Below the pieces are notes generated by a model that saw only the letters and a list, made by a program, of their open reading frames with translations, was not told where the DNA came from and searched no databases. The position numbers and the translations under genes are program-made. DNA of 34,288 nt from a virus (Duplodnaviria > Heunggongvirae > Uroviricota > Caudoviricetes), in IMG/VR virus record IMGVR_UViG_2548876869_000012; one strand, given 5' to 3'. Of the stretch, positions 1-27,482 are shown piece after piece; position 1 is the first letter of the stretch; each line of letters begins with the position of its first letter.

Positions 1-1362
1 ATGTTTAAACCGGAACTCCTTTCCCCGGCGGGAACGCTGAAAAATATGCGTTACGCTTTCGCTTATGGCGCAGATGCTGTTTATGCGGGCCAGCCGCGTT
101 ATTCCCTGCGTGTGCGCAACAACGAATTCAACCACGAAAATCTTCAGCTCGGCATCAATGAAGCCCACGCGCTGGGGAAAAAGTTTTATGTCGTGGTCAA
201 CATTGCACCGCACAACGCCAAGCTGAAAACCTTTATCCGTGACCTGAAACCGGTGGTGGAAATGGGGCCGGATGCGCTGATTATGTCCGATCCAGGGCTG
301 ATTATGCTGGTGCGTGAGCACTTCCCTGAAATGCCGATCCACCTTTCGGTGCAGGCTAACGCCGTGAACTGGGCGACGGTGAAATTCTGGCAGCAAATGG
401 GCCTGACCCGCGTGATCCTCTCTCGCGAGCTGTCGCTGGAAGAGATTGAAGAGATCCGCAATCAGGTGCCGGATATGGAGATCGAGATCTTCGTTCACGG
501 CGCGCTGTGCATGGCCTACTCCGGTCGCTGCCTGCTCTCTGGCTATATCAACAAGCGCGACCCGAACCAGGGCACCTGCACCAACGCCTGCCGCTGGGAG
601 TACAACGTCCAGGAAGGGAAAGAAGATGATGTTGGCAACATCGTACACAAGTACGAGCCGATTCCGGTGCAAAATGTTGAGCCGACGCTGGGTATCGGCG
701 CACCAACCGACAAAGTGTTTATGATCGAAGAGGCCCAGCGTCCGGGCGAGTATATGACCGCGTTTGAAGATGAGCACGGCACTTACATCATGAACTCGAA
801 AGATCTGCGCGCCATCGCCCATGTAGAACGCCTGACCAAAATGGGCGTGCATTCGCTGAAAATCGAAGGTCGTACCAAATCTTTCTACTATTGTGCACGC
901 ACCGCACAGGTTTACCGCAAAGCTATCGATGACGCCGCTGCGGGAAAACCGTTCGATACCAGCCTGCTGGAAACTCTGGAAGGTCTGGCGCATCGTGGCT
1001 ATACCGAAGGTTTCCTGCGTCGTCATACTCACGACGATTATCAGAACTACGAATACGGTTATTCAGTTTCTGACCGCCAGCAGTTTGTTGGTGAGTTTAC
1101 CGGTGAGCGCAAGGGGGACCTCGCGGCGGTAGCGGTGAAAAATAAATTCTCCGTTGGCGACAGCCTTGAGCTGATGACGCCGCAAGGCAACATTAATTTT
1201 ACCCTTGAGCACATGGAAAACGCCAAAGGCGAAGCTATGCCGATAGCACCAGGCGATGGTTATACTGTGTGGCTCCCGGTCCCGCAGGATCTTGAGCTCA
1301 ATTACGCGCTGCTGATGCGTAATTTCTCCGGGGAAACCACGCGTAATCCCCACGGTAAGTGA
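1..1362 (+). CDS. yegQ: U32-family peptidase YegQ (host gene, 453 aa, appears full length)
   Basis: ATG at position 1; translation MFKPELLSPAGTLKNMRYAFAYGADAVYAGQPRYSLRVRNNEF... matches my memory of enterobacterial YegQ; host-like GC-rich composition. Confidence 0.85.
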   Translation: MFKPELLSPAGTLKNMRYAFAYGADAVYAGQPRYSLRVRNNEFNHENLQLGINEAHALGKKFYVVVNIAPHNAKLKTFIRDLKPVVEMGPDALIMSDPGLIMLVREHFPEMPIHLSVQANAVNWATVKFWQQMGLTRVILSRELSLEEIEEIRNQVPDMEIEIFVHGALCMAYSGRCLLSGYINKRDPNQGTCTNACRWEYNVQEGKEDDVGNIVHKYEPIPVQNVEPTLGIGAPTDKVFMIEEAQRPGEYMTAFEDEHGTYIMNSKDLRAIAHVERLTKMGVHSLKIEGRTKSFYYCARTAQVYRKAIDDAAAGKPFDTSLLETLEGLAHRGYTEGFLRRHTHDDYQNYEYGYSVSDRQQFVGEFTGERKGDLAAVAVKNKFSVGDSLELMTPQGNINFTLEHMENAKGEAMPIAPGDGYTVWLPVPQDLELNYALLMRNFSGETTRNPHGK

Positions 1363-1393
1363 TTAATTTCGATTATTTTTCCCGGATGGAAAA

Positions 1394-1415
1394 TTCTTAG
1401 AAACCGATCACATAC
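1394..1415 (+). promoter_or_regulatory. Putative CRP site of the cyaR promoter (TTAGA-N6-TCACA, TCACA at 1408-1412); -10 TATCAT at 1434-1439
   Basis: Half-site TCACA is perfect and the other half is 3/5; site centre about 42 nt upstream of the inferred cyaR 5' end; cyaR is known to be CRP-activated. Confidence 0.35.
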
Positions 1416-1446
1416 AGCTGTATTTATTAAGGTTATCATCCGTTTC

Positions 1447-1533
1447 GCTGAAAAACATAACCCATAAAATGCTAGCTGTACCAGGAACCACCTCCTTAGC
1501 CTGTGTAATCTCCCTTACACGGGCTTATTTTTT
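1447..1533 (+). ncRNA. cyaR: CyaR (RyeE) Hfq-dependent small RNA
   Basis: Sequence GCTGAAAAACATAACCCATAAAATGCTAGCTGTACCAGGAACCACCTCCTTAGCCTGTGTAATCTCCCTTACACGGGCTTATTTTTT matches the E. coli CyaR sequence as I remember it, including the anti-SD loop CCACCTCCTTA and the terminator hairpin plus T-run; lies directly downstream of yegQ as in E. coli. Confidence 0.8.
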
Positions 1534-1534
1534 A
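1507..1534. repeat. attR core: 28-bp direct repeat AATCTCCCTTACACGGGCTTATTTTTTA at the ogr-proximal prophage junction, overlapping the cyaR 3' end
   Basis: Identical 28-mer recurs at 33786-33813 just beyond int; the two copies bracket a complete P2-like gene set. Confidence 0.8.
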
Positions 1535-1597
1535 CGCGTAATACAATGAAATAAAAGGATTTATTTCTGGTCACGTCCACACATTGACCACATCGAC

Positions 1598-1621
1598 AAA
1601 AAAGCCCCTCGACTGAGGGGC
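1598..1621 (-). terminator. Rho-independent terminator downstream of ogr
   Basis: GC-rich hairpin GCCCCTC-GACT-GAGGGGC (1604-1621) preceded on the plus strand by an A-run (1598-1603), i.e. a T-run after the hairpin on the minus strand. Confidence 0.5.
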
Positions 1622-1634
1622 TTCCTGTTTGTAA

Positions 1635-1853
1635 TTACATCCACATAATTTGCTGCCCTGACGGCAACGGGTGCGGTCTTACGGCGTGGACTTCTCCCGG
1701 CTTCACGATGTATCGCTGTACCGACTCATAAGTGATGAACGTGGCGCTGCAATTCACGTTCTGACACTGGTGATAACGCTCTTTTGTCGTGTCAGTGATA
1801 TAGCGGCTTGTACGCGCATGTGCGGCATGCTGGCATAAAGGACAATGAAACAT
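1635..1853 (-). CDS. ogr: Ogr, zinc-finger late-gene transcription activator (72 aa)
   Basis: Translation MFHCPLCQHAAHARTSRYITDTTKERYHQCQNVNCSATF... with Cys4 motif; ATG at 1851-1853 preceded by a purine-rich RBS; the track ORF extends to a TTG at 1916 but the 72-aa form matches P2 Ogr length. Confidence 0.9.
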   Translation of the reverse strand: MFHCPLCQHAAHARTSRYITDTTKERYHQCQNVNCSATFITYESVQRYIVKPGEVHAVRPHPLPSGQQIMWM

Positions 1854-1934
1854 CGCGAGCACCTCTTCCGGTTTTGTTGATGGTGCCATTTTAGTTAATT
1901 TATCCTTATAAAACAAACAGATAAAATAAAAACA

Positions 1935-3098
1935 TCACTCATCATCTTCTGTTTCGTACTCCACATCAGAAAGCCTGACCTCAAGCTCTAAGGACGTCGT
2001 GAAGCCGCTATTATTCAGAAAATGTGTCACCTTAGTGATTGTCCAGTCCTGCTCGTCTATGACGCGCTTAAAGCCTGACACTTTAACCGGTGTTTCCGTG
2101 TAAATATCAGCCCGACCGGTAGCCAGGCTGATGGAGAACTCCGCAACGCCCCGTTGCAGTTTATCCCACTTCGCCTGAGCGGCGCGCATGGCCTGCGCTT
2201 TCGTGGCATATACCGTGGTCAGGGCAAAAACATTGTCAGCCTCACCTGCCATGTATTCACCTTCGCGCGCTTCCGGTACTTTTGGCGCTTTCTTCTGCGT
2301 GACCGGTTTCGCTTTCGGGTGCTCCAGTGCGCGCAGGTGTTTCTCTTTCTTTTTGCGTTTCAGTTTTACCTTCTGCTTTTGCGGCTTCGGGTCTTTGGTG
2401 TGTAACCACTTTGCCGTTACGCCGGTGTAGGCTCCACGGTCAGCAATCGCAAAATGATGGCGGTCACCGTCGCTGCGGGTGATGGTGACCTGCGGGATTT
2501 TTTTACCGCTGGCCGTCACCCCCTGCCCCGCTTTGAGAAACAGCAGTTTTCCCATTTTTACCGACACCTCACCGCCGTTGCGTTCTGCAAGACGGGTCAG
2601 AAATTTCGCATCAGACTCCTGCGACTGGTCGATGTGCGGGATTTTAATTCCGGCCAGTGACGGAGCGACACTGGCTTCCAGCCTGTTACGGGAGGCTATC
2701 GCCTCAACAATCGCACCGAGCGTGGTGTCATGCCATGAGCCTTCACGGCGGGAATTGAGCGTCCCGCGAAAATCTGCACTCCGGGCGCGGATGGTGACCA
2801 CATCCGGTGCGCCCCGGTGTTCAACCTCATCAACGGTAAATTTCCCTTTGCATACCAGGGCAAAACCTTTCCAGCCGATATACACCGTCAGGACAGCGCC
2901 ACGAATCGGTAGTCCGACCTGCCCGTCGGCATCGTTCAGTTCAATATCAAGCTGGTCAGCCTCAAAGCCCCGGTTATCCGTCAGGGTCATGCTCATCAGA
3001 CGGTCGCTGATATTGCCGGTAATATCCCTGCTGTCGAGCATCAGCATGTAATCCGGCGTCAGCGTACTGCCTGCATCAAATGTCAGTGCATCCAGCAT
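1935..3098 (-). CDS. D: Tail protein D (late control D, 387 aa)
   Basis: Length and position after ogr match P2 gpD; start overlaps the U stop. Confidence 0.9.
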   Translation of the reverse strand: MLDALTFDAGSTLTPDYMLMLDSRDITGNISDRLMSMTLTDNRGFEADQLDIELNDADGQVGLPIRGAVLTVYIGWKGFALVCKGKFTVDEVEHRGAPDVVTIRARSADFRGTLNSRREGSWHDTTLGAIVEAIASRNRLEASVAPSLAGIKIPHIDQSQESDAKFLTRLAERNGGEVSVKMGKLLFLKAGQGVTASGKKIPQVTITRSDGDRHHFAIADRGAYTGVTAKWLHTKDPKPQKQKVKLKRKKKEKHLRALEHPKAKPVTQKKAPKVPEAREGEYMAGEADNVFALTTVYATKAQAMRAAQAKWDKLQRGVAEFSISLATGRADIYTETPVKVSGFKRVIDEQDWTITKVTHFLNNSGFTTSLELEVRLSDVEYETEDDE

Positions 3099-3577
3099 TA
3101 TCCCGCCCCCGTCATACCCGTGAATTTAGTCGCCATACTGCCAGCCTTACCGATGAGCGATTCCGCCTGTTTACCGATATCGCCATAAAGCGCGGCCAGT
3201 GATTCATCAACGCGGGTGAGCGACAGCGTAAAATCAATTTTCCGGGGTGTGCCGTCTGCAAAGAAAATACTCCCTGTTTCACTCACCTTGCTGATGACAT
3301 ACATGCCGTAAATCATGCCGGTGCCATCCAGCAACGGCCACGCCCGCCCCTCCTCTGCCATCAGCCTGAGCGTGGTCATCGTCAGCTTGCCGCCGGTCAG
3401 TTCGGGATAAAGCACACCGGCAAGCGTGATGTTTTCCTCACCCACACCGAGAAACTGAAAAGCGTCCCGTTTACCGATACGGGAATTTGACGGCCAGCGA
3501 TAATCTGATTCACGCTGCATGGTCTGGTGTGGCAGCGTCTGGCGCATAAAAACAAACATACCTAACGCGAGCATCAT
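3098..3577 (-). CDS. U: Tail protein U (159 aa)
   Basis: P2 synteny and length. Confidence 0.85.
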   Translation of the reverse strand: MMLALGMFVFMRQTLPHQTMQRESDYRWPSNSRIGKRDAFQFLGVGEENITLAGVLYPELTGGKLTMTTLRLMAEEGRAWPLLDGTGMIYGMYVISKVSETGSIFFADGTPRKIDFTLSLTRVDESLAALYGDIGKQAESLIGKAGSMATKFTGMTGAG

Positions 3578-7046: not shown

Positions 7047-8237
7047 TTAATTGCTGTTAACCGAGGTGACCAGATTTGCCAGGTATTTATCGGTAATACG
7101 CTGGCGCAGGGTCAGGTTTTCAAGAGGAGGCACCGGGGTATAGTCGTAGTCGATATACAGTTTTCCGGCCTTGAGGGTTTCCGCATCGTTGGATTCTTCG
7201 CTGAACCAGCAGGTCGCATCCACGATATAGCCGTTTGTTTTCAGCTCACGGAATTTGGCATTGATGCCGTCAACGATGTCGCGAATCAGCGTTGCGGTGA
7301 TGGGCTTGTCCACCGCCCACATGTGCGCCTCAGCCATCGTGTCGGCTAGCACCTGCGCGGTGCGGGTGTAGTTTTCAAAGAGGAACAGCGGGTCATCAGA
7401 GCAGGTACGGTTACCCCAGAAGCGGAAACCGTCACGGCGAATCAGCGTTGTGACACCTGACTCGTTCAGCAGGTCAGCATCGGTGCCGGACTCCTGCAAA
7501 TCCCAGAATACAGATGCGCTGATGCCGGTAACACCGTTCACCCCGACATTGGACAGCGTTTTATGCCAGCCCTGCTCCTGGTCGATTTTAGCGCGCAGGC
7601 CCAGTGCACGGGCAGTGGCATACGCGGTGGCGGTGGTACTGGTGACCGTATCCCATGCGAGGAAATCCGGCCAGATGACCATCAGCTCACGCTGGCTGAA
7701 ATTCTGGCGGTAAGCTTTCACCTCGGAAACGGTCTTACAGCCCCATGCGCTGATATACCCGAAAGCGCGCAGCTTCTGACAGACTGATGCCAGTGCAACA
7801 GCCACCTCTTTGGTGTCCAGTCCCGGCACGCCGAGAATACGCGGTTTAACACCGGTTACCGACTCCGCCGCCAGCAGGGCTTTCAGTCCGGTGTACTGAC
7901 CGTTTTCGTCGGTGGTGCCGATGATATTGGAAACGGTCTGCGCGAGTTTCGTTTCCTCGTCGTCGCCGGTGCCGTCTTCCACACGCACGACAACGGTGAC
8001 CGGTTTTGACTGGTCGGCGATGGCCTGCAACGATGCCGCCAGCGTGCCTTTTTTACCGGCCTTTGCAATTGCGCTCTGCACATTGGTAATCAGCACCGGT
8101 TTATTGAGGGGGAAGGTTTCCGCATCCGCATCGCTGGCCGTGCAGACCATGCCGACAATGGCAGTGGATACGGTGGAAATGACGCGGGTGCCGTCGTTAA
8201 TCTCCAGCACCTGCACGCCGTGATGATAGTCACTCAT
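7047..8237 (-). CDS. FI: Contractile tail sheath protein FI (396 aa)
   Basis: P2 synteny and length. Confidence 0.9.
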   Translation of the reverse strand: MSDYHHGVQVLEINDGTRVISTVSTAIVGMVCTASDADAETFPLNKPVLITNVQSAIAKAGKKGTLAASLQAIADQSKPVTVVVRVEDGTGDDEETKLAQTVSNIIGTTDENGQYTGLKALLAAESVTGVKPRILGVPGLDTKEVAVALASVCQKLRAFGYISAWGCKTVSEVKAYRQNFSQRELMVIWPDFLAWDTVTSTTATAYATARALGLRAKIDQEQGWHKTLSNVGVNGVTGISASVFWDLQESGTDADLLNESGVTTLIRRDGFRFWGNRTCSDDPLFLFENYTRTAQVLADTMAEAHMWAVDKPITATLIRDIVDGINAKFRELKTNGYIVDATCWFSEESNDAETLKAGKLYIDYDYTPVPPLENLTLRQRITDKYLANLVTSVNSN

Positions 8238-8330
8238 CCGTTTAACTCCGTGGTTAATGGGTGCAACTATTTTCTGTTGGGCAGTGCATGAGACGCTATT
8301 TGACCTGGCTGGTCAGTGGATGAAACAACA

Positions 8331-8359
8331 GATAAAGAAAATGCGGGCAATTCGCCCGC
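8331..8359 (-). terminator. Putative intrinsic terminator (minus strand) insulating the F operon promoter region from read-through
   Basis: Hairpin GCGGGC-AATTC-GCCCGC (8343-8359) followed on the minus strand by a T-rich tract (plus-strand GATAAAGAAAAT, 8331-8342). Confidence 0.4.
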
Positions 8360-8576
8360 ATGTCCTGATTTGTACACACTCATTTTCCGACTGACAGTTT
8401 ACATAGCCCAAACGCTATCAAATCTGACAGCCTGCTATGAGCGAAAAGCGTTAAATCTCACGATATCTGCTACCGGGAAAAATTTCGATTATCTTCGATG
8501 GGAACTTTGATAATGTAGTAAATGCCATTTTCAGCGATCACTTTTCAAGCGTGTGTAAATGATTAATGTTAAAAAA

Positions 8577-8606
8577 TTGACTTCACTGAAATAAGGTTGC
8601 TAGTAT
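8577..8606 (+). promoter_or_regulatory. Putative sigma70 promoter for the Z/fun-locus cargo operon (-35 TTGACT 8577-8582, 18-nt spacer, -10 TAGTAT 8601-8606)
   Basis: Sequence match by eye; followed by RBS AAGGA (8636-8640) and the ATG at 8648. Confidence 0.35.
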
Positions 8607-8647
8607 TTTTGGAGCAACCATTAATGTTTTTTATTTAAGGAATGTAA

Positions 8648-8929
8648 ATGACATACGCACTGATTGATAATTCAACTCTAACTGCAGTCCAAAGAATCGA
8701 GGGGAAAGTAAAAACAAGATCGAAGGACTCAGTAGATACAGACATAATAGCATTTGAGAACTATATACAGTCTATTTTGTTCTATGATCACGTTATCGCG
8801 GTTGATGATTATATTCCAGAGTACCGTGGGAGTAGGATTTCAAGTTTCAGAGAGATATTATTTCTTGATAAAGCACAATATGGGTTGGATGAAATTGAAA
8901 GTGAAGCAAAAAAATATCTGATGCATTGA
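8648..8929 (+). CDS. Hypothetical protein (93 aa), first ORF of the cargo module at the Z/fun locus
   Basis: ATG with RBS AAGGA; AT-rich; opposite strand to the flanking late operons; no motif I recognise. Confidence 0.55.
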   Translation: MTYALIDNSTLTAVQRIEGKVKTRSKDSVDTDIIAFENYIQSILFYDHVIAVDDYIPEYRGSRISSFREILFLDKAQYGLDEIESEAKKYLMH

Positions 8930-10065
8930 AACCTAAAATTCGTGGTGGAACATTTGTTAATGACGATTTTAAAAAACTAATTGAACTTCTTCAGACACAT
9001 ATCATATGTACATGGGACATTAGTTCAAGTGTTTATCATCTAACACTGAAGAACTTATCTGATGGAGGTAAGGAGTTTGAAAAATATGGTAACATTGCTG
9101 CTGCCATTTTTTCAGAACTGCGTGATGCTGCTGAGTCTGGTAATAGAACAAATGGCGATGTTGAACTTCTCGATCGATTTGGCAACCCTATTCGCAAGGG
9201 GTACAAAGTTCCCGGAGCAAAATGGGGGGATGGCACATCTGCTGGTGAAGCATCAGATGCAATCAAAGCATTCGTGGCTTCGCTTGTATGGCTGGCTAAT
9301 CGGGCAGTATTTTATTCTCTCACAGCTAAGTACCTTCAAGCAGATACTTTTTTATATCCATTACGTCAGGCGTATCAACAGACATATTTAAGCCAAAACT
9401 GTCAGTATGGTTTTGACTATGCTAAACATATTGTAGAAAACTTTTCCACTTCGTTAAGTCATGATCTCATTGATATTCATTCTGGTGGTAAAGCTGTAGC
9501 AACAGCAACTTCGCTTCCTTTATTTTCGGCATGGCTCGCAAAAGAAACTGGTGATCCAAGTTGTATTGTTGAAGCTGCTTATAACATAAGGGACAACAAC
9601 GAATTTGTAAGGGCCCGTGAGAAAATGCGAGAAATAAAGCGCTTGTTTGATGAAAATGAATTGCCTCAAGCTAATAAGTCAGTAAGAGCATTGCTTACTG
9701 AAGTATCGAAAGAATCAGATTATATTCGAACTAAGTATGGGCTCAAGACTAGACAAGGTGTACCTGTAACTAAGCTTGTACATGTATACAATACTGTTGC
9801 GGCTATTAATTCCCTTCCGAAACTACCGACCTTTAATTTTAAAGTTAAAGTTCCTGATTTCTTATATGATCTTAAAAAACCCAAGGGGTTTCGTGCTCTC
9901 TATCGAAATTTGACTAATGATCTTTCTACTGTGTGGTCGTTAGGAGAAGCTCGAGATATTCTTGGAAGTAAAGTTGTGATAGATAATCATGCAAGAATTT
10001 ACAGTCCGAAGCATGAAGAACCGCGTTTCAAAAACTCTCATTCCCCATATAAGAGCCCGATGTAG
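8926..10065 (+). CDS. Hypothetical protein (379 aa), second ORF of the cargo module; TTG start overlapping the upstream stop (TTGA), possibly the continuation of one frameshifted gene
   Basis: Long open frame in AT-rich DNA; no in-frame ATG near the 5' end; A7 run at 8908-8914 immediately upstream would join it to the 93-aa ORF by a -1 shift. Confidence 0.55.
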   Translation: MKPKIRGGTFVNDDFKKLIELLQTHIICTWDISSSVYHLTLKNLSDGGKEFEKYGNIAAAIFSELRDAAESGNRTNGDVELLDRFGNPIRKGYKVPGAKWGDGTSAGEASDAIKAFVASLVWLANRAVFYSLTAKYLQADTFLYPLRQAYQQTYLSQNCQYGFDYAKHIVENFSTSLSHDLIDIHSGGKAVATATSLPLFSAWLAKETGDPSCIVEAAYNIRDNNEFVRAREKMREIKRLFDENELPQANKSVRALLTEVSKESDYIRTKYGLKTRQGVPVTKLVHVYNTVAAINSLPKLPTFNFKVKVPDFLYDLKKPKGFRALYRNLTNDLSTVWSLGEARDILGSKVVIDNHARIYSPKHEEPRFKNSHSPYKSPM

Positions 10066-10179
10066 CTTAAGAAAAAGACACGCCCACCTTGTGCGTCTAC
10101 TTCTGGCACAGAGCGGACTCTCAGATTAGGCTTTACTCTGTGCCATAGATATGTAAGCTCACACCAGAGCTCATACAAC

Positions 10180-10707
10180 TTATTGCGGCATTTCCGGCCA
10201 TTCAGGATTTGCAGGATCCACACGACTGACCAGAACACTGTAGCGTTCCCATGCCTCCAGTCGACTGCGCTCCTCATCTGTTGCCATATTCAGCCTGACA
10301 GCGCGCTCCAGCGGCAAAATCACGGATTCAGCATCTGCAAGAAGTCTGGCTTTCCGATTTTCTGCCTGCTGCTGCAATTCCTCTGCCGTATAAATTCGTT
10401 TAATCACTGTACAGTCCTTAAACATCCAGTTCCCTGAAATGTCCGCCCGTCGGTTAGCAGTAATATCCGGCACTTCAACAACACTTAATCCATCCGGTCT
10501 GATAGCTGTCACATCCTTTTCCACATAGCGGATAATATTATCTTTGTCGTACGCTATTTTTATCGTGTCATCAGCAAAATACTTTTGTTCTTCGTACCAG
10601 TTCTTACCATCTTCTGAAAAAAACCAGACAACATCAAAGTCCTTTGTCAATTGATATTGTTCAACCGTTTTTGGATTACCTGCCGTTATATTTATCAAAT
10701 GCTGCAT
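10180..10707 (-). CDS. G: Tail fiber assembly protein G (175 aa)
   Basis: P2 synteny and length; immediately follows H. Confidence 0.85.
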
Positions 10708-10710
10708 AAA

Positions 10711-13029
10711 TTATACCTGCGCCACGTTATACCAAGTCCCGTTAATGTATTTCTGCACCGGTCTGTAATATACGCCACCAATGTTATCGGCAGAGTTTGA
10801 GCCGGTATCCTGAACAATAATGCCGGAATATACACACCCGGACGGTGCCTGATGTGTCCATGTCATACCATTGTTCGCAGGTTTGTATGTGGCAGCACCA
10901 CCAAGCCGGATATCCCGGACATAGCGTGAATCAAAATTACTATAGTTAGATGGTGATACCTGCCCGTTAACAGCAAAAGTGATGCTGTTATCTGTATTTC
11001 TCTGACTGTAAAAATGCCAGCCTGCATCATCACCTAATTCAGCCACCACCGGACGACTTGAGTTTCCCCACAAATTGAATGCGGCTTCCTTCGTGGATGT
11101 ATTACTGCTGCTGACCGTGAATTTTTTCCCGCTACCGGCACGTACTTTGGTACTTGAGGCAATATCACCAGTAACACTCAGGCCATGCCCCATTGATACA
11201 GCACCCGTGGCATCATTTATAATCAGTGGTCTTAAATTATTATAAGTGCCTAATCTGTCACCTGATTTAGTCAACATAAAATAAGTGCTGCTGCCATCAT
11301 TCCTGATAAAGAATCCATAATTGCCATAAGCAATGCGCAGACCATTAGCACTGCTTGATGTAATCTCACCTCTTGAACGGAGACCATAAGCGGAGCTGAG
11401 TGATAATTCTTCCTGAGCATCAGTATTACCAGTCGCCCAGCGAACTACCCCGCCCTGTACTGTTTCATGCCAGATAGTGTCTCCTTCTCCACCACGAAAC
11501 TTTCTGAGATATTTTTTGCCGCCTCTGGTGCCTGAACATAAGGCCGTAGACATATAGGCATTCTGGCTTCCGCCATCCTGATTAATCGTTCCGGTCATTG
11601 CGTCGCCCTGACGATTCCAGTCACGACGCCAGCCGGGGGAGTAGCCGTCCCCATGATTAATGTAAGTGAATTGCGCGCTGGTTGTACCGCCACCGCTTGA
11701 TGTTGTCGGCGTGGTCACTCGGATAGTGATTGCAGATTTAGTTCCCATGACCTCGACGACACAACCAGCCAGGTGGATATCACCACATCCGGTATCCGTA
11801 ATGATTTTGTTATTTGCATATGACCAGGAGCCTTTGCACATCCAGTACGGATGATTAAATGCACCACGGGAATCCAGCCATTCAATAAACTGAGCGGTTG
11901 TCCAGTTTCCGGCTTCAGTGCTCAAACCGCCGCTATAAGCACGACAGGCACCGATATTTTTCGTGAAGGTATCCTTTCCCGGAATATCCGCACCGTTCTG
12001 ATCTTTCTGAAGACGTTTTTCAGCATTGTCATAGGCAGACTTCACTGCTTTTGGCGTTGCCGCGAGGGTTTCAGAATCACTGTTGGTGGCGCTACTGAGC
12101 TGGACAAGCCCTTTTCGCGCTGTGGTGGCATCCTGTGCAGTGTATTTCCCGTTAGCAAGGTCATACGCTGTCTTAACCGCCTTTGGCGTTGCCGCAAGCG
12201 TTTCAGAATCGCTGTTGGTGACGCTACTTAGCTGGACAAGGCCTTTTCGCGCGGTGGTGGCGTCCTGTGCGGTATATTTCCCGTTAGCCAGGTCATATGC
12301 TGCTTTTACCGCTTTTGGTGTTGCAGCGAGCGTTTCAGACGTGCTGTTGGTGGCACTACTGAGCTGGACAAGACCTTTTCGCGCTGTGGTGGCATCCTGC
12401 GCAGTATATTTCCCGTTAGCAAGGTCATACGCGGCCTTTACCGCTTTCGGCGTTGCGGCCAGTGTTTCAGACGTGCTGTTGGTCGCACTGCTTAACTGAG
12501 TAAAACCTTTGGCGGTCAGCGAGGCGTCCGGGTGACGTCGTGACTGTTCGTGCTCTGCAATTTTGTCATCAACGTAATCCTGCGTCGCCATCACTGTTGT
12601 GGTGTCAATGGTCAGCTCCACTGAGGCCACACTGCTGACGATGATGACCATGCGACAGGTCTGCGAACGCCCTGAGCCTTCGGCGAGAGCTGGCTTATAA
12701 CTTTCGGCCATGTTCGCCACGGCAATTAATGTTCCCGCATCATCGTACAGGCCAAGCTCACGCATCCAGAAACCGCCCACCTCCGGCGGAATAACCAGCT
12801 CTGCGATAATATAATTACTGTTTCGTTTGTCCTGGCTGATTTTGTTCAGCGCATGTCGCCAGACTTCATGGATAAGTCCGGTCTGTCCGGCATCCGGGAC
12901 AGGCAATTTACCACCGCCATCCCCGACGGCCATCGTGGTAATGTTGACCTTCCGCCCTCCCGGTGCGGTTGCCGCTGCCAGCTTTGCTGCACCGGCAGTG
13001 GTGATAACGGTTCTGAATTTTGTGCTCAT
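10711..13029 (-). CDS. H: Tail fiber protein H (772 aa) with internal 44-aa tandem repeats
   Basis: P2 synteny; conserved N-terminus; about 100 aa longer than P2 gpH (669 aa) because of the repeats. Confidence 0.9.
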   Translation of the reverse strand: MSTKFRTVITTAGAAKLAAATAPGGRKVNITTMAVGDGGGKLPVPDAGQTGLIHEVWRHALNKISQDKRNSNYIIAELVIPPEVGGFWMRELGLYDDAGTLIAVANMAESYKPALAEGSGRSQTCRMVIIVSSVASVELTIDTTTVMATQDYVDDKIAEHEQSRRHPDASLTAKGFTQLSSATNSTSETLAATPKAVKAAYDLANGKYTAQDATTARKGLVQLSSATNSTSETLAATPKAVKAAYDLANGKYTAQDATTARKGLVQLSSVTNSDSETLAATPKAVKTAYDLANGKYTAQDATTARKGLVQLSSATNSDSETLAATPKAVKSAYDNAEKRLQKDQNGADIPGKDTFTKNIGACRAYSGGLSTEAGNWTTAQFIEWLDSRGAFNHPYWMCKGSWSYANNKIITDTGCGDIHLAGCVVEVMGTKSAITIRVTTPTTSSGGGTTSAQFTYINHGDGYSPGWRRDWNRQGDAMTGTINQDGGSQNAYMSTALCSGTRGGKKYLRKFRGGEGDTIWHETVQGGVVRWATGNTDAQEELSLSSAYGLRSRGEITSSSANGLRIAYGNYGFFIRNDGSSTYFMLTKSGDRLGTYNNLRPLIINDATGAVSMGHGLSVTGDIASSTKVRAGSGKKFTVSSSNTSTKEAAFNLWGNSSRPVVAELGDDAGWHFYSQRNTDNSITFAVNGQVSPSNYSNFDSRYVRDIRLGGAATYKPANNGMTWTHQAPSGCVYSGIIVQDTGSNSADNIGGVYYRPVQKYINGTWYNVAQV
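12027..12519. repeat. Tandem repeat inside H: about 3.7 copies of a 132-bp (44-aa) unit
   Basis: Unit start GTTTCAGA recurs at 12068, 12200, 12332 and 12464; protein unit TAQDATTARKGLVQLSSATNS(T/D)SETLAATPKAVKxAYDLANGKY. Confidence 0.85.
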
Positions 13030-13039
13030 TATTCCTCAC

Positions 13040-13570
13040 TTATCCGGGGTAAACCGTAATTACATCGCCGTCGTAAGCCACACCACCGGCGAACAGGTAG
13101 CCGGGAATGTCCCGGGTAATGTTCAGGCCAATAAGGTGACGGCTTGCAGGTTTGGCATCAGCAATCAGCCGTTCCATTTCCTGATACATTGCCTCTGTGA
13201 TGCCGCTTTCCAGTACACCAATATCAAGCCGGAAGGTGCCGGGCGGGTCACTGTTTTCCCACCACTCCGTCACGTTGATGAGATAGCCGAGCGGCTCCAC
13301 CACACGCCGGATTGCACCTATTGTGCCTTTATGACAGTGGATGAAATACGCATCGCGGATAACGGCGCGTTTTGTCGCTTCCGGCCACTTTTCATCCCAC
13401 CTGTCGACCGAAAACGCCCACGCCAGCCACGGCAGCAGATTTGCCGGACAGGTGTCCGGGTTCCACAGCTCACGAATACTGACCGGTGTTTTTTCAATTT
13501 CCGCACAGGCTTTTGCGGCGGCAACTTCAAGCGGTGATGAGCCGGTCGGCAGCAGTCGCGAATCACTCAT
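13040..13570 (-). CDS. I: Baseplate assembly protein I (176 aa)
   Basis: P2 synteny and length. Confidence 0.85.
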   Translation of the reverse strand: MSDSRLLPTGSSPLEVAAAKACAEIEKTPVSIRELWNPDTCPANLLPWLAWAFSVDRWDEKWPEATKRAVIRDAYFIHCHKGTIGAIRRVVEPLGYLINVTEWWENSDPPGTFRLDIGVLESGITEAMYQEMERLIADAKPASRHLIGLNITRDIPGYLFAGGVAYDGDVITVYPG

Positions 13571-14471
13571 CCGAGCCTCCGGTCACGACGCGGTATTCGG
13601 TGCAGAAAGACGCCTGCGTACTGTTGAGCACGATGTCGGCCAGTGGTGCAGCCAGTTCGACACGCTGCACGCCTTCCACATGCAAAGCGGCATAAATGGC
13701 AGACAGACGGATGTCGCGCCCCAGCCGGTGCTGTGCCGTGATGTATGCTTCCAGTTTTTTCACGGCGGCCGCGCGGATGGGTTCACTTTCGGGACCAGGG
13801 TAAAGGTAAAGCGTGGCGTTTATCTGGTATTCAACAATGGCGGCAGACTGCACGGTCACGCGGTCGGCCACCGGTCTGACGTCCTCGCCATTCAGGGCGT
13901 TACGCACCACCGCCAGCAGGTCTTCGGATGCGACACCGTTATTCTCACGTGACAGCACAGAGATGGTGACGCAGGCCGGAGACGGACTGGTGACAGAGAT
14001 ATCCGCGACACGCCCGTCAGCACTGCGACCATGATACTGATAGGCACCCACCGACCCGGCGACGCTTAAACCTTCAAACGCCTGCTGAATACGCAGACGA
14101 TAATCGGTATCAGATTCCATCACTGCCGGTGTCGGCGGGATGGTCGAATCATCTGCCGGGGTGATAGTCAGACGCGTGGTGTTGTAATTGGCACCAATCA
14201 CATCAAGGTCATTACCCGCGGCACAGGCCAGCATCACCGCCCGTGCGGCCTCATTCACACGCTGACGCCAGATAAGCTCACGATAAGCATTTTCCTCCAG
14301 CAGTTTGACGAGAGGCTCGGATTCCAGCGTCAGGGTACGGGCGACCGCCTCCTGCTGGTCTTCCGGGTAAAGGGAAATCAGTGTCGCCTTGCGTTCGGCA
14401 AGAATGGTTTCAAAGTCCAGCTCCTCGACCACATCCGGTGCAGGTAGCTGGTTCAGGTCGATAATCGGCAT
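13563..14471 (-). CDS. J: Baseplate assembly protein J (302 aa)
   Basis: P2 synteny and length. Confidence 0.9.
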   Translation of the reverse strand: MPIIDLNQLPAPDVVEELDFETILAERKATLISLYPEDQQEAVARTLTLESEPLVKLLEENAYRELIWRQRVNEAARAVMLACAAGNDLDVIGANYNTTRLTITPADDSTIPPTPAVMESDTDYRLRIQQAFEGLSVAGSVGAYQYHGRSADGRVADISVTSPSPACVTISVLSRENNGVASEDLLAVVRNALNGEDVRPVADRVTVQSAAIVEYQINATLYLYPGPESEPIRAAAVKKLEAYITAQHRLGRDIRLSAIYAALHVEGVQRVELAAPLADIVLNSTQASFCTEYRVVTGGSDE

Positions 14472-14475
14472 GGTT

Positions 14476-14823
14476 TCAACTCACAGGGATGGTTAACGAA
14501 AGTGGCTGGCCGGTGTCGTTGTGCTGGCCGGTTAACGTAACTGTCATTCGCCCGTCAAAACTGCGCTCAGTGGTGACGGATGACAGGGTGACGCGGGGTT
14601 CCCATTTCAGCACCGCCATGTAACAGGCGACCTTAATCTGCAACTCAAGCGCCGGGGTCTGCGGCTGGTCAATCATTGACGCCAGCAACGAGCCGTAATC
14701 ACGACGCATCACCCGTGAGCCGACCGGTGTGCGCAGGATATCGCCGATACTCTGGCTGATATGCTCAAGGTCAGTGACAGTCAGGCCATCACTGCGATTC
14801 ATTCCGAGATAACGCGCTGTCAT
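14476..14823 (-). CDS. W: Baseplate wedge protein W (115 aa)
   Basis: P2 synteny and length. Confidence 0.85.
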   Translation of the reverse strand: MTARYLGMNRSDGLTVTDLEHISQSIGDILRTPVGSRVMRRDYGSLLASMIDQPQTPALELQIKVACYMAVLKWEPRVTLSSVTTERSFDGRMTVTLTGQHNDTGQPLSLTIPVS

Positions 14824-15455
14824 AGAGGGCTCCCGGTTGTGCCGCCGCTGTCGCCGGGGTGTTTATGGGTATGCAGTACCTTACCGTTTGATGAGAGTTC
14901 ACCGCCGGTGTGTTCAATGTTGCCGCGCATCGTCCCGCCCTTCTGCACTTCCAGCGTGCCGGTAATCAGCCTGTTGGTGCAGACCACCTCCGGTGTGTCC
15001 AGGGTGACGCGGGTTGATGCTTTCACCATGACCACCGGCACCGTGGCAGTAACAGAATCAGAAGCCGTCACGCTGGCCGTTTTAATTCCGCTTACCGTGA
15101 GTGCACTGGTTTCGGGTTCATACTCAATCACCGCCCCGTCAGGGAAACGGATATGCAGGGCATCCGCCGACGCAGACGGCGCGGGGTTATCGCCGGAATA
15201 AATCCCCGGCAGAACAAACGCCGTGTCAAGTTCACCGCCCACGGCCAGAATCAGCACCTGCTCCCCCACGGAAGGTGCCCACCATGTGCGCGAACGCCCG
15301 GCACGACAGGTCAGCCACTGAAGCCAGTCGGTGCACATGCCGCCGGTCTGCACACGGCAGCGACCGGCTTTAAGGTTGGTTTCGACGACAAGGCCGGTGC
15401 GGATCATGTTGCGCAGTGCGCGCGCGAGTTCCTGGATATTTGCGAGAGTGTTCAT
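14820..15455 (-). CDS. V: Baseplate spike protein V (211 aa)
   Basis: P2 synteny and length. Confidence 0.85.
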   Translation of the reverse strand: MNTLANIQELARALRNMIRTGLVVETNLKAGRCRVQTGGMCTDWLQWLTCRAGRSRTWWAPSVGEQVLILAVGGELDTAFVLPGIYSGDNPAPSASADALHIRFPDGAVIEYEPETSALTVSGIKTASVTASDSVTATVPVVMVKASTRVTLDTPEVVCTNRLITGTLEVQKGGTMRGNIEHTGGELSSNGKVLHTHKHPGDSGGTTGSPL

Positions 15456-25025: not shown

Positions 25026-25910
25026 TCAGGCGCAAGTTGGCATTGAGACCCCTTTCAGGGTATTAGGAATAATTATTTCAGGAGAAAAAATCATCACTTC
25101 CTCTCCAGATTTTTTGAGATGCGCTGTATATTGCAATGAATACTCAACTTGCGGAAATCCATTATAAATATCTTTAATTTCCTTAGCGTTATCATAAGAA
25201 ACAAGCCAATTTGGGAAATTAATTTCTGTGAGTTTCTTCATAACCAATACATGATCATCATGCTCATAAAAATTCCTGTAAAGCCCTTGTCCTTTAATAT
25301 AGTAAGGAGGATCCAAATACAAAAGAATTTTATTTTTATCCACCTTTCCCATATTATCCATAAAATTCAAGGCATCAAGAAAATCCAAAGCATCCAGATT
25401 AGTTACTACTATTCTTTGATTATAATTTGCTATCTTCTCAATTCTTGAAATTAAATCCGCCCTGTTAAAGCGAACATCCATTTTCCATTTTCCATTTTGT
25501 GATTTCCCGCCTATAACCCCCGCCTTGAGAATACCTGAACGATTTGTTCTATTTAAGAAAAACGCAGCAAAGCCAACCTCAAGCTTAGTAAACTCAGAAG
25601 GATTCGAAATAACATAGCGATGAAAAGACCATTCATCCATATCTATCTTTGCTCGGCTAATAAGTCGGCAAAGCTCATCAGTATCACTAACAACAGATGA
25701 CCAAAAAGAATAAACAGCAAAATCTGCATCATTTATATAGATTTTACGGACATACTCTTCCAATAATAATTCTAAAGCCACCCCTGCACCACCAGCGTAA
25801 GGTTCTGCATATGCTCCATCATTCAACGAGTTTTTTTCAATAACATCTTTTAAAAAGTAAGATAACTTACCTTTCCCGCCGGGGTATCTTAATGGAGTAT
25901 AAAATTTCAT
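25026..25910 (-). CDS. Dam-family DNA N6-adenine methyltransferase (294 aa)
   Basis: Motif I-like EPYAGGAGV near the N-terminus and catalytic DPPY (YLDPPYY); AT-rich cargo at the P2 tin/old position; ATG with GAGGG RBS. Confidence 0.8.
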   Translation of the reverse strand: MKFYTPLRYPGGKGKLSYFLKDVIEKNSLNDGAYAEPYAGGAGVALELLLEEYVRKIYINDADFAVYSFWSSVVSDTDELCRLISRAKIDMDEWSFHRYVISNPSEFTKLEVGFAAFFLNRTNRSGILKAGVIGGKSQNGKWKMDVRFNRADLISRIEKIANYNQRIVVTNLDALDFLDALNFMDNMGKVDKNKILLYLDPPYYIKGQGLYRNFYEHDDHVLVMKKLTEINFPNWLVSYDNAKEIKDIYNGFPQVEYSLQYTAHLKKSGEEVMIFSPEIIIPNTLKGVSMPTCA

Positions 25911-25979: not shown

Positions 25980-27482
25980 TCACTCACTCCAAATAAGGCT
26001 TAATAACAACTCAAAGTTATCCCACTCAGTGTTGACAGCCTCTTTTGAGGGAATTAAGTGTGGGTTATGTACATACTGCTGCAATGAACCATCATGTTTA
26101 GTTATTTGGCTCGAGAAAGTTATTACAGCCGTACATTGACTCCCCGTCATCTTTTTATTTTCCCGAAGGAAATTAGCACACATTTTAACCTTATCATGAA
26201 GCCCTGGAGTTCTATGTGGTTCCTTAAATTGTAACTTGTTTTCTTCAACAAAAGTGCTTACAGAGAGATCTATAAATATTCTCAACAATATTGAGATAGC
26301 ATTAGGGGTGTTATCAAATGTCAGATGCGACTTAAGCTCATTAAATATTCTAGAGCATTTCTTATGCCCTCTAAAATTAAATTTCACATAAGATGGCACC
26401 AACACATTACGATCTACTTTAGGAGGAGTTTTTCCCTTGTTTTTATTCTGTTCCGTACCCGAAACTTTAGATTTACTCTCTTCTGTGCCTACATGTCTAG
26501 AATAATCATCTTCCTGTTTATCCACACCTGTATTCTTTAAGGCATCACCTTCTGAAAGACCTGCTTTCTTTACACTCACAGATGCATCATTTTTGTCAAT
26601 AGAATCATGTTTTTTCTCTGTAAGAAAAGATTTAGGCTCTAGTAAACTCCACGGCTTATCTAAAAGAGATTCTGAAGGTTTTATTTTTTGTTCAATAATA
26701 AATGTAACCCTGTCATCTTGGCTACGAATCCTATTAACAGTAAAACAAGCCTTACCTTTATCATCCTCTTCAATCATTACATCTAAAATATTTTTTAATT
26801 GTGCACAAAAACGTTCATAAGGCTGATATGAGTATAGAACTCCATTAATGCTTTTTAAATTAAAATAATCCCTCACCTTTAAATCACCAAAAAGACGCGT
26901 GATGTTTGTGATTTTTAAAAGTCTTTTTTTAGCAATTATCTCTTTATATAAATCAGTATTGAACTCTATAAATGTAAGTATTTGATTACCAAATGACTGC
27001 TTACCCATCCTAGCCAGATGTCGTGCTTTTTCTGTTGCAGTCCATTCAACTCTTCCAACTCCAGCATTTTGACCAGTATGCTTTAAATTGACCCAATGCT
27101 CATATTCATCATCGTCAAAAAGAACGCAGTTATCTATAACATTAATATCTTTAAGCTGAGTAATCTTAAGTTTTTCAAAAGCTTTCCGTGCTTTTTCTGT
27201 TGGTGCAAGTCTAGGAGAGTGTAAAAGTTTAAGGGCTGTAACTCGACGATTACCTTCAGCAACGACGAAAAAGCCAGATTCCTCTTCACTAGGATAAACT
27301 AATATGTTTTCAGACGGATCTAAACCTTTCGAAGCAATATCTTTAGCCAAGCGATAAATGCGGTCGTACTGCAAGTCAAGCATCTTGGCAATAGCATCAC
27401 GCTGATTTTCTGCTGACGTCGGGAAACGAGGGTTATCAACATCCAAAAGTAACTTATTGATATTCATTGATTTTAGTTGATT
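25980..27482 (-). CDS. ParB/Srx-superfamily N-terminal-domain protein with unassigned C-terminal domain (about 500 aa; alternative upstream ATG at 27554 gives 524 aa)
   Basis: N-terminus INKLLLDVDNPRF ... VVAEGNRRVTALKLL resembles the ParB N-terminal nuclease/CTPase fold (GxxRxxA box); preferred start ATG at 27480-27482 has a GAGGA RBS; AT-rich; sits 69 bp upstream of the Dam gene on the same strand. Confidence 0.6.
   Translation of the reverse strand, partial: NQLKSMNINKLLLDVDNPRFPTSAENQRDAIAKMLDLQYDRIYRLAKDIASKGLDPSENILVYPSEEESGFFVVAEGNRRVTALKLLHSPRLAPTEKARKAFEKLKITQLKDINVIDNCVLFDDDEYEHWVNLKHTGQNAGVGRVEWTATEKARHLARMGKQSFGNQILTFIEFNTDLYKEIIAKKRLLKITNITRLFGDLKVRDYFNLKSINGVLYSYQPYERFCAQLKNILDVMIEEDDKGKACFTVNRIRSQDDRVTFIIEQKIKPSESLLDKPWSLLEPKSFLTEKKHDSIDKNDASVSVKKAGLSEGDALKNTGVDKQEDDYSRHVGTEESKSKVSGTEQNKNKGKTPPKVDRNVLVPSYVKFNFRGHKKCSRIFNELKSHLTFDNTPNAISILLRIFIDLSVSTFVEENKLQFKEPHRTPGLHDKVKMCANFLRENKKMTGSQCTAVITFSSQITKHDGSLQQYVHNPHLIPSKEAVNTEWDNFELLLSLIWSE

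What the first reader, a model, noticed from the sequence alone, without database searches (positions are those of the whole stretch)
12027..12519. Tail fiber H carries about 3.7 in-frame tandem copies of a 132-bp repeat
Near-perfect 132-bp units (starting at 12068, 12200, 12332 and 12464 on the plus strand) encode a repeated 44-aa segment in the shaft of H, making it about 100 aa longer than P2 H. Such repeats are recombination-prone and can vary fibre length; the C-terminal receptor-binding region and the G chaperone also look distinct from P2, suggesting a different receptor specificity.
Basis: seen in the sequence. Interest (0 to 1): 0.45.

Follow-up and report, generated by a model that had tools for sequence, protein, structure and literature searches.

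The report
Known repeat in P2-type tail fibre
The 132-bp tandem repeat is real, but it is the catalogued "phage tail fibre repeat" (Pfam PF03406) in the shaft of a P2-type tail fibre, and its four copies are the commonest number among close relatives, so it is ordinary.

Summary
A 132-bp, indel-free, in-frame tandem array (TRF 12028-12483; four protein units across 11980-12507, minus strand) lies in the 772-aa P2 gpH-type tail-fibre gene (10711-13029).

It is not new. The unit is Pfam PF03406 "Phage tail fibre repeat" (255 bits, 4 stretches).
- P2 H has 2 units, L-413C 1, fiAA91-ss and P37 3.
- Several deposited phages have 4 (vB_YpM_115, vB_YpM_46, P2DC1, 12474III).
- Among 76 complete IMG/VR relatives, 4 is the modal count (48), with a range of 1-5.
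- An identical H+G is present in other complete E. coli genomes.

"Near-perfect" is true only for the protein.
- DNA units are 83-85% identical, with dS 0.71-0.85 and dN 0.04-0.08.
- The longest shared exact run is 26 bp.
- The units are therefore old, selectively maintained paralogues that mostly keep their positional identity (1-2-3-4). Occasional in-register gains or losses occur (1-2-3-3-4, 1-3-4, 1-2-4).

An assembly artefact is excluded.

The array most likely acts as a modular shaft spacer. Its conserved core also marks the point where distal fibre modules are swapped. H here joins a P2-like N-terminus, Mu S'/S-like middle domains, and a tip+G cassette shared with fiAA91-ss and P2DC1.

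Verdict: already known, low interest.

The parts
10711..13029 (-). Tail fibre gene H (772 aa), P2 gpH type and mosaic
   Evidence: ORF. Pfam PF12571 aa 1-151, PF03406 x4, PF21446 aa 541-604. 96% identical to P2 H over aa 1-243. 100% identical in E. coli EC6622 and 89-3156.
12577..13029 (-). N-terminal baseplate-attachment domain (aa 1-151, Phage_tail_fib)
   Evidence: PF12571, E 1.6e-58. Near-identical to P2 H. P2 vs window dS is 0.09 over the first 174 codons.
11980..12507 (-). Array of four 44-aa PF03406 units (aa 175-350). The DNA-level tandem repeat is detectable over 12028-12507.
   Evidence: TRF period 132, 3.5 copies, no indels. Pfam Phage_fiber_2 at 255 bits, 4 stretches. Unit coordinates.
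12376..12507 (-). Unit 1 (aa 175-218)
   Evidence: Core is 72/72 nt identical to P2 unit 1.
12244..12375 (-). Unit 2 (aa 219-262)
   Evidence: 84% DNA identity to unit 1, dS 0.85, dN 0.04.
12112..12243 (-). Unit 3 (aa 263-306)
   Evidence: This is the unit duplicated in the 5-copy alleles 1-2-3-3-4.
11980..12111 (-). Unit 4 (aa 307-350). The conserved core (~28 codons, 12028-12111) is followed by the Mu-S-like junction 'SAYDNAEKRLQKDQNGADIP'.
   Evidence: aligned to Mu S aa 118-173. Junction types are listed.
11569..12030 (-). Module resembling the variable part of the Mu G(-) fibre S' (aa 334-487)
   Evidence: PDB 8ju3 chain residues 177-332, 238.7 bits. phrog_21834 aa 329-460.
11146..11400 (-). 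T4 gp34-type / Mu S-type trimerisation segment (aa 544-628)
   Evidence: PF21446 aa 541-604. 5yvq, 4uxe and 5nxf matches at aa 544-624.
10714..11145 (-). Distal tip (aa 629-772). The last 64 aa (10714-10905) form a separate cassette.
   Evidence: 59% identical to P2 H aa 534-669. Last 64 aa are 98% identical to fiAA91-ss and P2DC1, and 34-36% to P2, YpM_115 and P37. The homologous HR2 segment of phage P88 sets host range (PMC5285337).
10180..10707 (-). Tail fibre assembly gene G (175 aa)
   Evidence: PF02413 Caudo_TAP, E 2.8e-33. 75% identical to P2 G. 93-98% identical to G of fiAA91-ss and P2DC1, so it co-varies with the tip.
13040..13570 (-). Baseplate gene I (context, same operon)
   Evidence: PF09684 Tail_P2_I, E 6e-56. 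Same length and position as P2 I.
12083..12499 (+). Antisense 138-aa ORF across the repeat. It is a shadow ORF, not a gene.
   Evidence: Its third codon position coincides with that of H. Unit differences are less conservative in this frame (12/5, 10/9, 16/4 syn/nonsyn) than in H (16/2, 12/5, 15/3).

Best explanation
The feature is an array of four copies of the known 44-residue phage tail fibre repeat (Pfam PF03406). It lies in the proximal shaft of a P2 gpH-type trimeric tail fibre, directly after the baseplate-attachment domain.

Shown:
- The units are old paralogues kept nearly identical in protein sequence by purifying selection, while their synonymous sites have diverged almost to saturation.
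- Each position in the array has its own recognisable DNA version, shared across many phages.
- Copy number among relatives ranges from 1 to 5-6, and changes occur by whole units in register.
- Four is the commonest state.
- The conserved first ~24 residues of the unit (G-L-V-Q-L-S-S-x-T-N-S-x-S-E-T-L-A-A-T-P-K-A-V-K) mark the exact point where different distal fibre modules are joined on. This is seen for P2, L-413C, Mu S and this prophage.

Inferred:
- Each unit adds a fixed increment of rod to the trimeric shaft. Unit number would then set how far the receptor-binding tip stands from the baseplate.
- The DNA encoding the conserved core serves as a homologous joint. Through it, distal receptor-binding modules and their G chaperone are exchanged between P2-like, Mu-like and lambdoid fibres.

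Receptor specificity itself lies in the distal tip and the co-inherited G, not in the repeat.
For: - Identity of the repeat: PF03406 at 255.4 bits against a cut-off of 22, 4 stretches.
- Gene identity and context.
- Copy numbers in isolated phages: P2 2; L-413C 1; fiAA91-ss and P37 3; YpM_115, YpM_46, P2DC1, P2_2H4 and 12474III 4.
- 76 complete IMG/VR H genes: 1 copy x1, 2 x14, 3 x2, 4 x48, 5 x11.
- 22 other enterobacterial species: 1-4 copies.
- Database proteins reach 5-6 copies.
- Age and selection: dS 0.71-0.85 and dN 0.04-0.08 between units, against dS 0.09 for P2 vs window in the N-terminal domain.
- Positional orthology and whole-unit gain or loss: pattern 1-2-3-4 in 45 genes; variants 1-2-3-3-4 (10), 1-3-3-4 (7), 1-2-4 (3), 1-2-2-3-4 (2), 1-3-4 (1).
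- On the same distal module (at least 90% identity), 13 genes have 4 units and one has 5. P37 (87%) has 3.
- More units make a longer protein: rho 0.51 with total length. There is no compensation by the distal part (rho -0.17, p 0.075).
- Joint function: P2 and the window diverge right after 'AVK' of unit 2. L-413C diverges after the core of unit 1. Mu S aligns from its single unit onward. More than 20 different sequences follow the last core.
- The repeat DNA occurs in 2291 of 5426 complete E. coli genomes, including lambdoid stf genes.
- Functional virions with 4 units exist as plaque-forming isolates.
Against: - No structure of the unit is available. PF03406 was listed among repeat families without a known structure (PMC8078820).
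- My monomer AlphaFold model was uninformative (pLDDT 44). The claim that each unit adds length as a rod is therefore an inference from position, periodicity and the unit-wise length variation.
- The very strong conservation (dN/dS about 0.05-0.1) is more than a passive spacer would seem to need. It leaves room for a specific interaction.
- The association of copy number with distal junction type (2 with the P2-type junction, 3-5 with the 'SAYDNAEKRLQK' junction) could reflect shared ancestry rather than function.
- The samples are not phylogenetically independent.
Confidence: 0.8

Rival explanations
1. Assembly artefact: the repeat count is wrong because the assembler collapsed or expanded the array.
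For: Many database H proteins are 'partial' at contig ends. This shows that short-read assemblies often break somewhere in these genes.
Against: The identical 2850-bp H+G occurs at 100% identity in two other complete E. coli genomes. All but one of the 40 best complete-genome matches have exactly the same span; H35 is 10 bp shorter. 144 genomes hold at least 80% of it. Isolated phages carry 4 units. The units differ at 20-23 of 132 nt and share no exact run longer than 26 bp, so they can be resolved even with short reads.
Confidence: 0.01
2. A recent, unstable expansion: a hypervariable contingency locus that changes fibre length at high frequency through recombination between near-identical units.
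For: Alleles with 3, 4 and 5 units exist on nearly the same distal module. Unit patterns such as 1-2-3-3-4 and 1-3-4 show that in-register gain and loss do occur.
Against: dS between units is 0.71-0.85, eight to nine times the P2-window divergence. Units keep their positional identity across phages, with no concerted homogenisation. Adjacent units share only 14-20 bp of exact identity. That is below the roughly 23-27 bp usually cited for efficient RecA-dependent exchange in E. coli; this threshold is from my own knowledge and was not tested here. 4 units are found in 13 of 14 genes with the same distal module.
Confidence: 0.05
3. The units are specific interaction modules rather than passive spacers. 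They might dock the folded-back fibre along the sheath or baseplate before triggering, or bind a surface glycan as a secondary, low-affinity receptor contact.
For: Purifying selection is very strong on almost every residue of the core (17 invariant positions across P2, L-413C, Mu and window units; dN/dS about 0.05-0.1). In Mu, whose fibre carries one such unit, the fibres lie along the sheath in the extended state (PMC11915804).
Against: There is no direct evidence of any partner. The same unit occurs in fibres of myoviruses and lambdoid siphoviruses with different tails, which argues against a sheath-specific contact. Variable copy number is tolerated.
Confidence: 0.12
4. The plus-strand ORFs across the repeat (11851-12231, 12083-12499) are the real genes and the repeat belongs to them.
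For: Open frames of 126 and 138 aa exist. The 138-aa frame also looks conserved between units.
Against: The third codon position of that frame coincides with that of H, so the apparent conservation follows automatically from H. It is still less conservative than the H frame. The H frame matches three Pfam families and solved fibre structures.
Confidence: 0.01

Closest known systems
Bacteriophage P2 tail fibre gpH (NP_046775) with assembly protein gpG
   Same: Same operon position (V-W-J-I-H-G). The N-terminal 243 aa are 96% identical, including unit 1 and the core of unit 2. The last 144 aa are 59% identical and G is 75% identical.
   Different: P2 H has 2 units and this H has 4. aa 244-628 are unrelated to P2. 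The last 64 aa are only 36% identical.
Pfam PF03406 Phage_fiber_2 ('Phage tail fibre repeat')
   Same: Each of the four units matches the 42-position model nearly end to end. The whole protein scores 255 bits against a cut-off of 22.
   Different: Nothing. This is a plain member. The family is defined by sequence only, and no structure or function has been assigned to the unit (PMC8078820).
Deposited peduoviruses with four units: Yersinia phages vB_YpM_115/117/46, Escherichia phages P2DC1, P2_2H4 and vB_EcoM-12474 series
   Same: Same N-terminus and same 4-unit array with the same unit order. YpM_115 H is 98.4% identical in DNA over nt 1-2129.
   Different: The tip and G differ. This prophage carries the fiAA91-ss/P2DC1-type last 64 aa and G on a YpM_115-type middle part.
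Phage Mu tail fibres S (G+; PDB 5yvq, 9ki1) and S' (G-; PDB 8ju3)
   Same: Mu S has one PF03406 unit (aa 118-161) followed by the same kind of junction. H aa 334-487 matches the S' variable part and H aa 544-771 matches the S C-terminal domain.
   Different: There is no invertible segment. No long inverted repeats flank the distal H/G and no invertase gene lies next to G. Both the S'-like and S-like modules sit in series in one polypeptide. The N-terminus is P2-type.
Yersinia phage L-413C gpH (913 aa)
   Same: P2-type N-terminus (85% over aa 1-207) and a mosaic distal part, as described by Garcia et al. 2008 and cited in PMC7460101.
   Different: It has only one unit and a different, much longer distal part.
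Shaft repeats of other viral fibres, e.g. the ~15-residue shaft repeats of the adenovirus fibre, whose number sets fibre length (own knowledge, analogy only)
   Same: Whole-unit variation of a repeated shaft motif between related viruses, with a receptor-binding domain at the end.
   Different: No sequence relationship. The structural role of the PF03406 unit has not been demonstrated.

Membership tests
Pfam PF03406 Phage_fiber_2 (phage tail fibre repeat) | Sequence match to the family model above Pfam's gathering score | tested here: met
   E 1.5e-77, 255.4 bits against a cut-off of 22. There are 4 stretches; the best is aa 170-210 on model positions 1-41 of 42.
Pfam PF03406 Phage_fiber_2 (phage tail fibre repeat) | Units of about 40 residues occurring within a phage tail fibre protein, often in tandem | tested here: met
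   44-aa period with no indels. The host protein is a tail fibre.
P2 gpH-type tail fibre (Peduoviridae) | N-terminal tail-collar/fibre attachment domain (PF12571) homologous to P2 H | tested here: met
   PF12571, E 1.6e-58, aa 1-151. 96% identity to P2 H over aa 1-243.
P2 gpH-type tail fibre (Peduoviridae) | Position in the V-W-J-I-H-G late operon, followed by a Caudo_TAP assembly gene | tested here: met
   ORFs of 211, 115, 302 and 176 aa lie upstream, the same lengths as P2 V, W, J and I. I is Tail_P2_I and G is Caudo_TAP.
P2 gpH-type tail fibre (Peduoviridae) | Forms a trimeric fibre on the baseplate of an infectious virion | not testable with these tools
   Indirect only. Plaque-forming phages carry H genes 95.7-98.4% identical in DNA over nt 1-2129 (92% of the gene), with the same 4 units.
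Mu S/S' invertible tail-fibre system | Sequence homology of fibre domains to Mu S or S' | tested here: met
   8ju3 E 3.5e-91 (aa 334-487 against S' 177-332). 5yvq E 9.7e-64 (aa 544-771).
Mu S/S' invertible tail-fibre system | Invertible segment: two alternative distal fibre/chaperone gene sets, flanked by inverted repeats, with an adjacent serine invertase (Gin/Cin type) | tested here: not met
   Only a 19-nt imperfect inverted pair inside H and an 18-nt palindrome in G were found in 8200-13100. Next to G lies a phrog_13435 gene of unknown function, not an invertase. There is a single G gene.
Hypervariable / contingency tandem repeat | Near-identical DNA units allowing frequent slippage or unequal exchange; copy number differing freely between close relatives | tested here: not met
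   Units are 83-85% identical with dS 0.71-0.85. Positional unit identity is conserved. 13 of 14 genes with the same distal module have 4 units.

The most novel reading that the evidence does not exclude
The number of PF03406 units may be an adaptive 'ruler'. It would be matched to the distal receptor-binding module and to the depth of the receptor under O-antigen or capsule. On this reading, unit gain or loss is a second axis of host-range adaptation, separate from tip exchange, and the synonymous diversification of the units is itself selected to keep a favourable count stable against recombination. Consistent observations: 2 units always accompany the P2-type junction, while 3-5 accompany the 'SAYDNAEKRLQK' junction. 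Alleles with 3, 4 or 5 units exist on the same distal module. Amino-acid conservation is extreme despite near-saturated synonymous divergence.
Probability: 0.15. Interest if true: 0.4.

Novelty: already known. Interest (0 to 1): 0.1.

Why it matters
It matters little as a discovery. The repeat family, its presence in P2 H and the four-unit alleles are all already in public databases and annotated phages.

The practical value is for annotation and engineering:
- The core of the unit is the natural splice point for swapping distal fibre modules onto a P2 or R-pyocin-type chassis.
- Natural alleles with 1-6 units offer a ready-made series for testing how fibre length affects adsorption.
- The tip+G cassette structure seen here (last 64 aa of H travelling with G) tells engineers which pieces must be moved together.

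Tried and rejected
1. AlphaFold2 monomer of H aa 144-360, without an alignment. Mean pLDDT was 44 and pTM 0.28, with an all-helix guess. It is unusable, so I ran no fold search on it.

2. Profile search of the unit against PDB sequences. Only Mu S/S' (5yvq, 9ki1, 8ju3) contain it. I could not establish whether residues 118-161 are ordered in those entries. The Mu cryo-EM paper only says that the N-terminus was modelled and the C-terminal crystal structure was docked.

3. Length compensation, i.e. fewer units when the distal part is longer. Not supported: rho -0.17, p 0.075.

4. L-413C as the closest relative, suggested by its published mosaic description. Rejected: it has one unit and a different distal part.

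5. Invertible-segment reading, prompted by the Mu S/S' similarity. Rejected.

6. Antisense ORFs as genes. Rejected.

7. Literature. Haggard-Ljungquist 1992 and Mori 2024 are not held. Two searches failed on term length. No paper in the library discusses copy-number variation of this repeat in P2-like H.

8. The spread sample from complete E. coli genomes was too noisy for exact unit counts, because the BLAST pieces are ambiguous inside the array. I relied on fetched loci instead.
Full report
**Observation**

Tandem Repeats Finder reports a single array in 10000-15000. It spans 12028-12483, with period 132, 3.5 copies, 86% matches, no indels and score 653. The repeat finder gives 219-nt copies spaced exactly 132 nt apart.

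The array lies in the minus-strand ORF 10711-13029 (772 aa) and is in frame. In the protein the units are aa 175-218, 219-262, 263-306 and 307-350. These correspond to window 12376-12507, 12244-12375, 12112-12243 and 11980-12111. The fourth unit keeps only its first ~28 codons.

"Near-perfect" is right only for the protein. Full units differ at 20-23 of 132 nt (83-85% identity), mostly synonymously: 16/2, 12/5 and 15/3 synonymous/non-synonymous codons. The longest exact run shared by any two units is 26 bp, and 14-20 bp for adjacent units.

**What the gene is**

Pfam finds three families:
- Phage_tail_fib (PF12571) at aa 1-151
- four stretches of Phage_fiber_2 (PF03406, "Phage tail fibre repeat"; E 1.5e-77, 255 bits against a cut-off of 22)
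- Gp34_trimer (PF21446) at aa 541-604

The neighbours are Tail_P2_I upstream and a Caudo_TAP assembly gene downstream. The upstream ORFs have exactly the lengths of P2 V, W, J and I.

Against P2 H, aa 1-243 are 96% identical, aa 244-628 are unrelated, and aa 629-772 are 59% identical. G is 75% identical to P2 G. Against solved structures, aa 334-487 match the variable part of the Mu G(-) fibre S' (8ju3). aa 544-771 match the Mu G(+) fibre S (5yvq) and the C-terminal part of T4 gp34.

The window is a P2-like prophage of E. coli. H+G is 100% identical in strains EC6622 and 89-3156.

**The repeat is a known family and P2 has it too**

Counts in deposited phages:

| Units | Phages |
|---|---|
| 1 | L-413C |
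| 2 | P2, P2_AC1 |
| 3 | fiAA91-ss, P37 |
| 4 | vB_YpM_115, vB_YpM_46, P2DC1, P2_2H4, vB_EcoM-12474III |

The GenBank record of phage P37 even calls the product "tail fiber repeat protein".

I fetched 80 IMG/VR loci with the closest N-terminal domains and counted units with an HMM built from the units. The 76 complete genes have 1 (1 gene), 2 (14), 3 (2), 4 (48) or 5 (11) units. In 22 other enterobacterial species the number is 1-4. The best 120 database proteins include alleles with 5, and apparently 6, units.

Four units is thus the modal state. The 2 units of the type phage P2 are the minority state.

The repeat DNA itself matches in 2291 of 5426 complete E. coli genomes, including lambdoid side-tail-fibre genes such as stfR. 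This agrees with the literature, where the Pf2 unit is noted in prophage fibre proteins of O157:H7 (PMC3368898).

**Age, selection and stability**

Between units of this gene, dS is 0.71-0.85 and dN is 0.04-0.08. P2 and this prophage differ by dS 0.09 in the adjacent N-terminal domain. The duplications are therefore much older than the divergence of these phages, and the protein sequence of each unit is under strong purifying selection.

I assigned every unit in 90 H genes to its nearest window unit by DNA:

| Unit order | Genes |
|---|---|
| 1-2-3-4 | 45 |
| 1-2 | 16 |
| 1-2-3-3-4 | 10 |
| 1-3-3-4 | 7 |
| 1-2-4 | 3 |
| 1-2-2-3-4 | 2 |
| 1-3-4 | 1 |
| other patterns | 6, one gene each |

So units are positionally orthologous and there is no concerted homogenisation. 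Number changes by occasional in-register gain or loss of whole internal units.

Among genes carrying the same distal module as this one (at least 90% identity over 438 aa), 13 have 4 units and one has 5. P37 (87%) has 3. The array is polymorphic but not hypervariable.

An assembly artefact is excluded. All but one of the 40 best complete-genome matches have the identical 2850-bp span (H35 is 10 bp shorter), 144 genomes hold at least 80% of H+G, and isolated phages carry the same array.

**Mosaic joints**

P2 H and this H diverge immediately after "AVK" of unit 2. L-413C diverges after the core of its single unit. Mu S aligns from its single unit (aa 118-161) through "DNAxxRLxKDxNGADIP". More than twenty different sequences follow the last core in the surveyed genes. 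The conserved core is therefore the border at which distal modules are exchanged.

A second joint lies near aa 709. The middle part (nt 1-2129) is 98.4% identical to vB_YpM_115. The last 64 aa, however, are 98% identical to fiAA91-ss and P2DC1 and only 34-36% identical to P2, YpM_115 and P37. G follows the tip: 93-98% identical to fiAA91-ss and P2DC1, and 75-77% to the others.

This fits two published findings. In the P2-like phage P88, residues 716-746 of the fibre determine host range (PMC5285337). Tail-fibre assembly proteins bind the distal tip through a variable N-terminal domain (PMC9608196).

**How it most likely works**

Shown:
- family membership and location between the attachment domain and the distal modules
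- unit-wise length variation, where more units give a longer protein (rho 0.51) with no compensation by the distal part (rho -0.17, p 0.075)
- strong purifying selection on the units
- distal-module breakpoints at the core

Inferred:
- In the trimer, each unit contributes a fixed length of shaft, so unit number sets the reach of the tip.
- The conserved core DNA provides the homology for swapping distal modules between P2-like, Mu-like and lambdoid fibres.

The structural step is unverified. PF03406 was listed as a repeat family without a known structure (PMC8078820), and my monomer model was useless (pLDDT 44). The strength of selection leaves room for a specific interaction, for example docking of the folded-back fibre as seen for Mu fibres lying along the sheath (PMC11915804). 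I rate that at about 0.12.

**Comparison and novelty**

This is a plain member of PF03406 inside a plain, if mosaic, member of the P2 gpH family. It resembles Mu S/S' in its distal domains but lacks the invertible segment that defines the Mu system.

The only modest additions here are that four units is the norm, that the units are ancient and positionally orthologous, and that tip plus G move as a cassette. Novelty: already known. Interest: low.

**Both strands**

The plus-strand ORFs across the array (126 and 138 aa) are shadow ORFs. The third codon position of the 138-aa frame coincides with that of H, which makes it look conserved. It is still less conservative than the H frame.

**In passing**

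- The prophage carries a PD-Lambda-5 defence pair.
- At the P2 fun(Z) position it has a gene of unknown function (phrog_13435) that is split by a frameshift at or just after an A7 tract.

Noticed in passing
window 25026-25910 (-) and 25980-27554 (-): A two-gene PD-Lambda-5 anti-phage defence system. The 294-aa protein is PD-Lambda-5_B, a D12-class adenine methyltransferase (E 1.4e-121). The 524-aa protein is PD-Lambda-5_A (E 5.9e-168). The pair sits between the capsid-side late genes and the replication gene. I take that position to correspond to the known old/tin cargo hotspot of P2-like phages; this is from my own knowledge and was not checked against P2 here.
   Followed up: partly
window 8648-8929 (+) and 8926-10065 (+): A cargo gene lies between G and the tail sheath gene (the fun(Z) position of P2), on the opposite strand to the tail genes. 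It belongs to phrog_13435 (unknown function, 472 positions) but is split into 93-aa and 379-aa ORFs, which match profile positions 1-89 and 94-472. The frameshift lies at or just after an A7 tract (about 8908-8914). It has no Pfam or PADLOC match and no tblastn match in the phage collection. It could be a pseudogene, a sequencing error in a homopolymer, or a slippery tract.
   Followed up: partly
window 10714-10905 (-) plus 10180-10707 (-): The last 64 aa of H and the whole of G travel together as a cassette. They are 98% and 93-98% identical to fiAA91-ss and P2DC1. The 375 aa before them are of the vB_YpM_115 type, so a recombination joint lies near H aa 709.
   Followed up: yes
window 11569-12030 (-) and 10714-11400 (-): One polypeptide carries in series a module like the Mu G(-) fibre S' (aa 334-487) and a module like the Mu G(+) fibre S (aa 544-771). 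In Mu these are alternatives chosen by DNA inversion.
   Followed up: partly
window 1-1362 (+) and 32693-33706 (+): A host peptidase U32 gene lies at the left edge, and a phage integrase (Int_N + Phage_integrase) lies near the right edge. The window therefore holds essentially the whole P2-like prophage plus one flank.
   Followed up: no
L030 (IMGVR_UViG_3300015179_000014), H gene from locus position 1006: An 816-aa H with the same distal module as the window (96% identity) but five units (order 1-2-2-3-4). It is a natural length variant of the very same fibre.
   Followed up: partly
E. coli OkiPb01685, NZ_AP042523.1 2353280-2356119 (hit H35): Its H+G match is 10 bp shorter than the query (2840 vs 2850) at 99.6% identity in one piece. 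That would break the reading frame, so it is a possible pseudogene or an assembly error.
   Followed up: no
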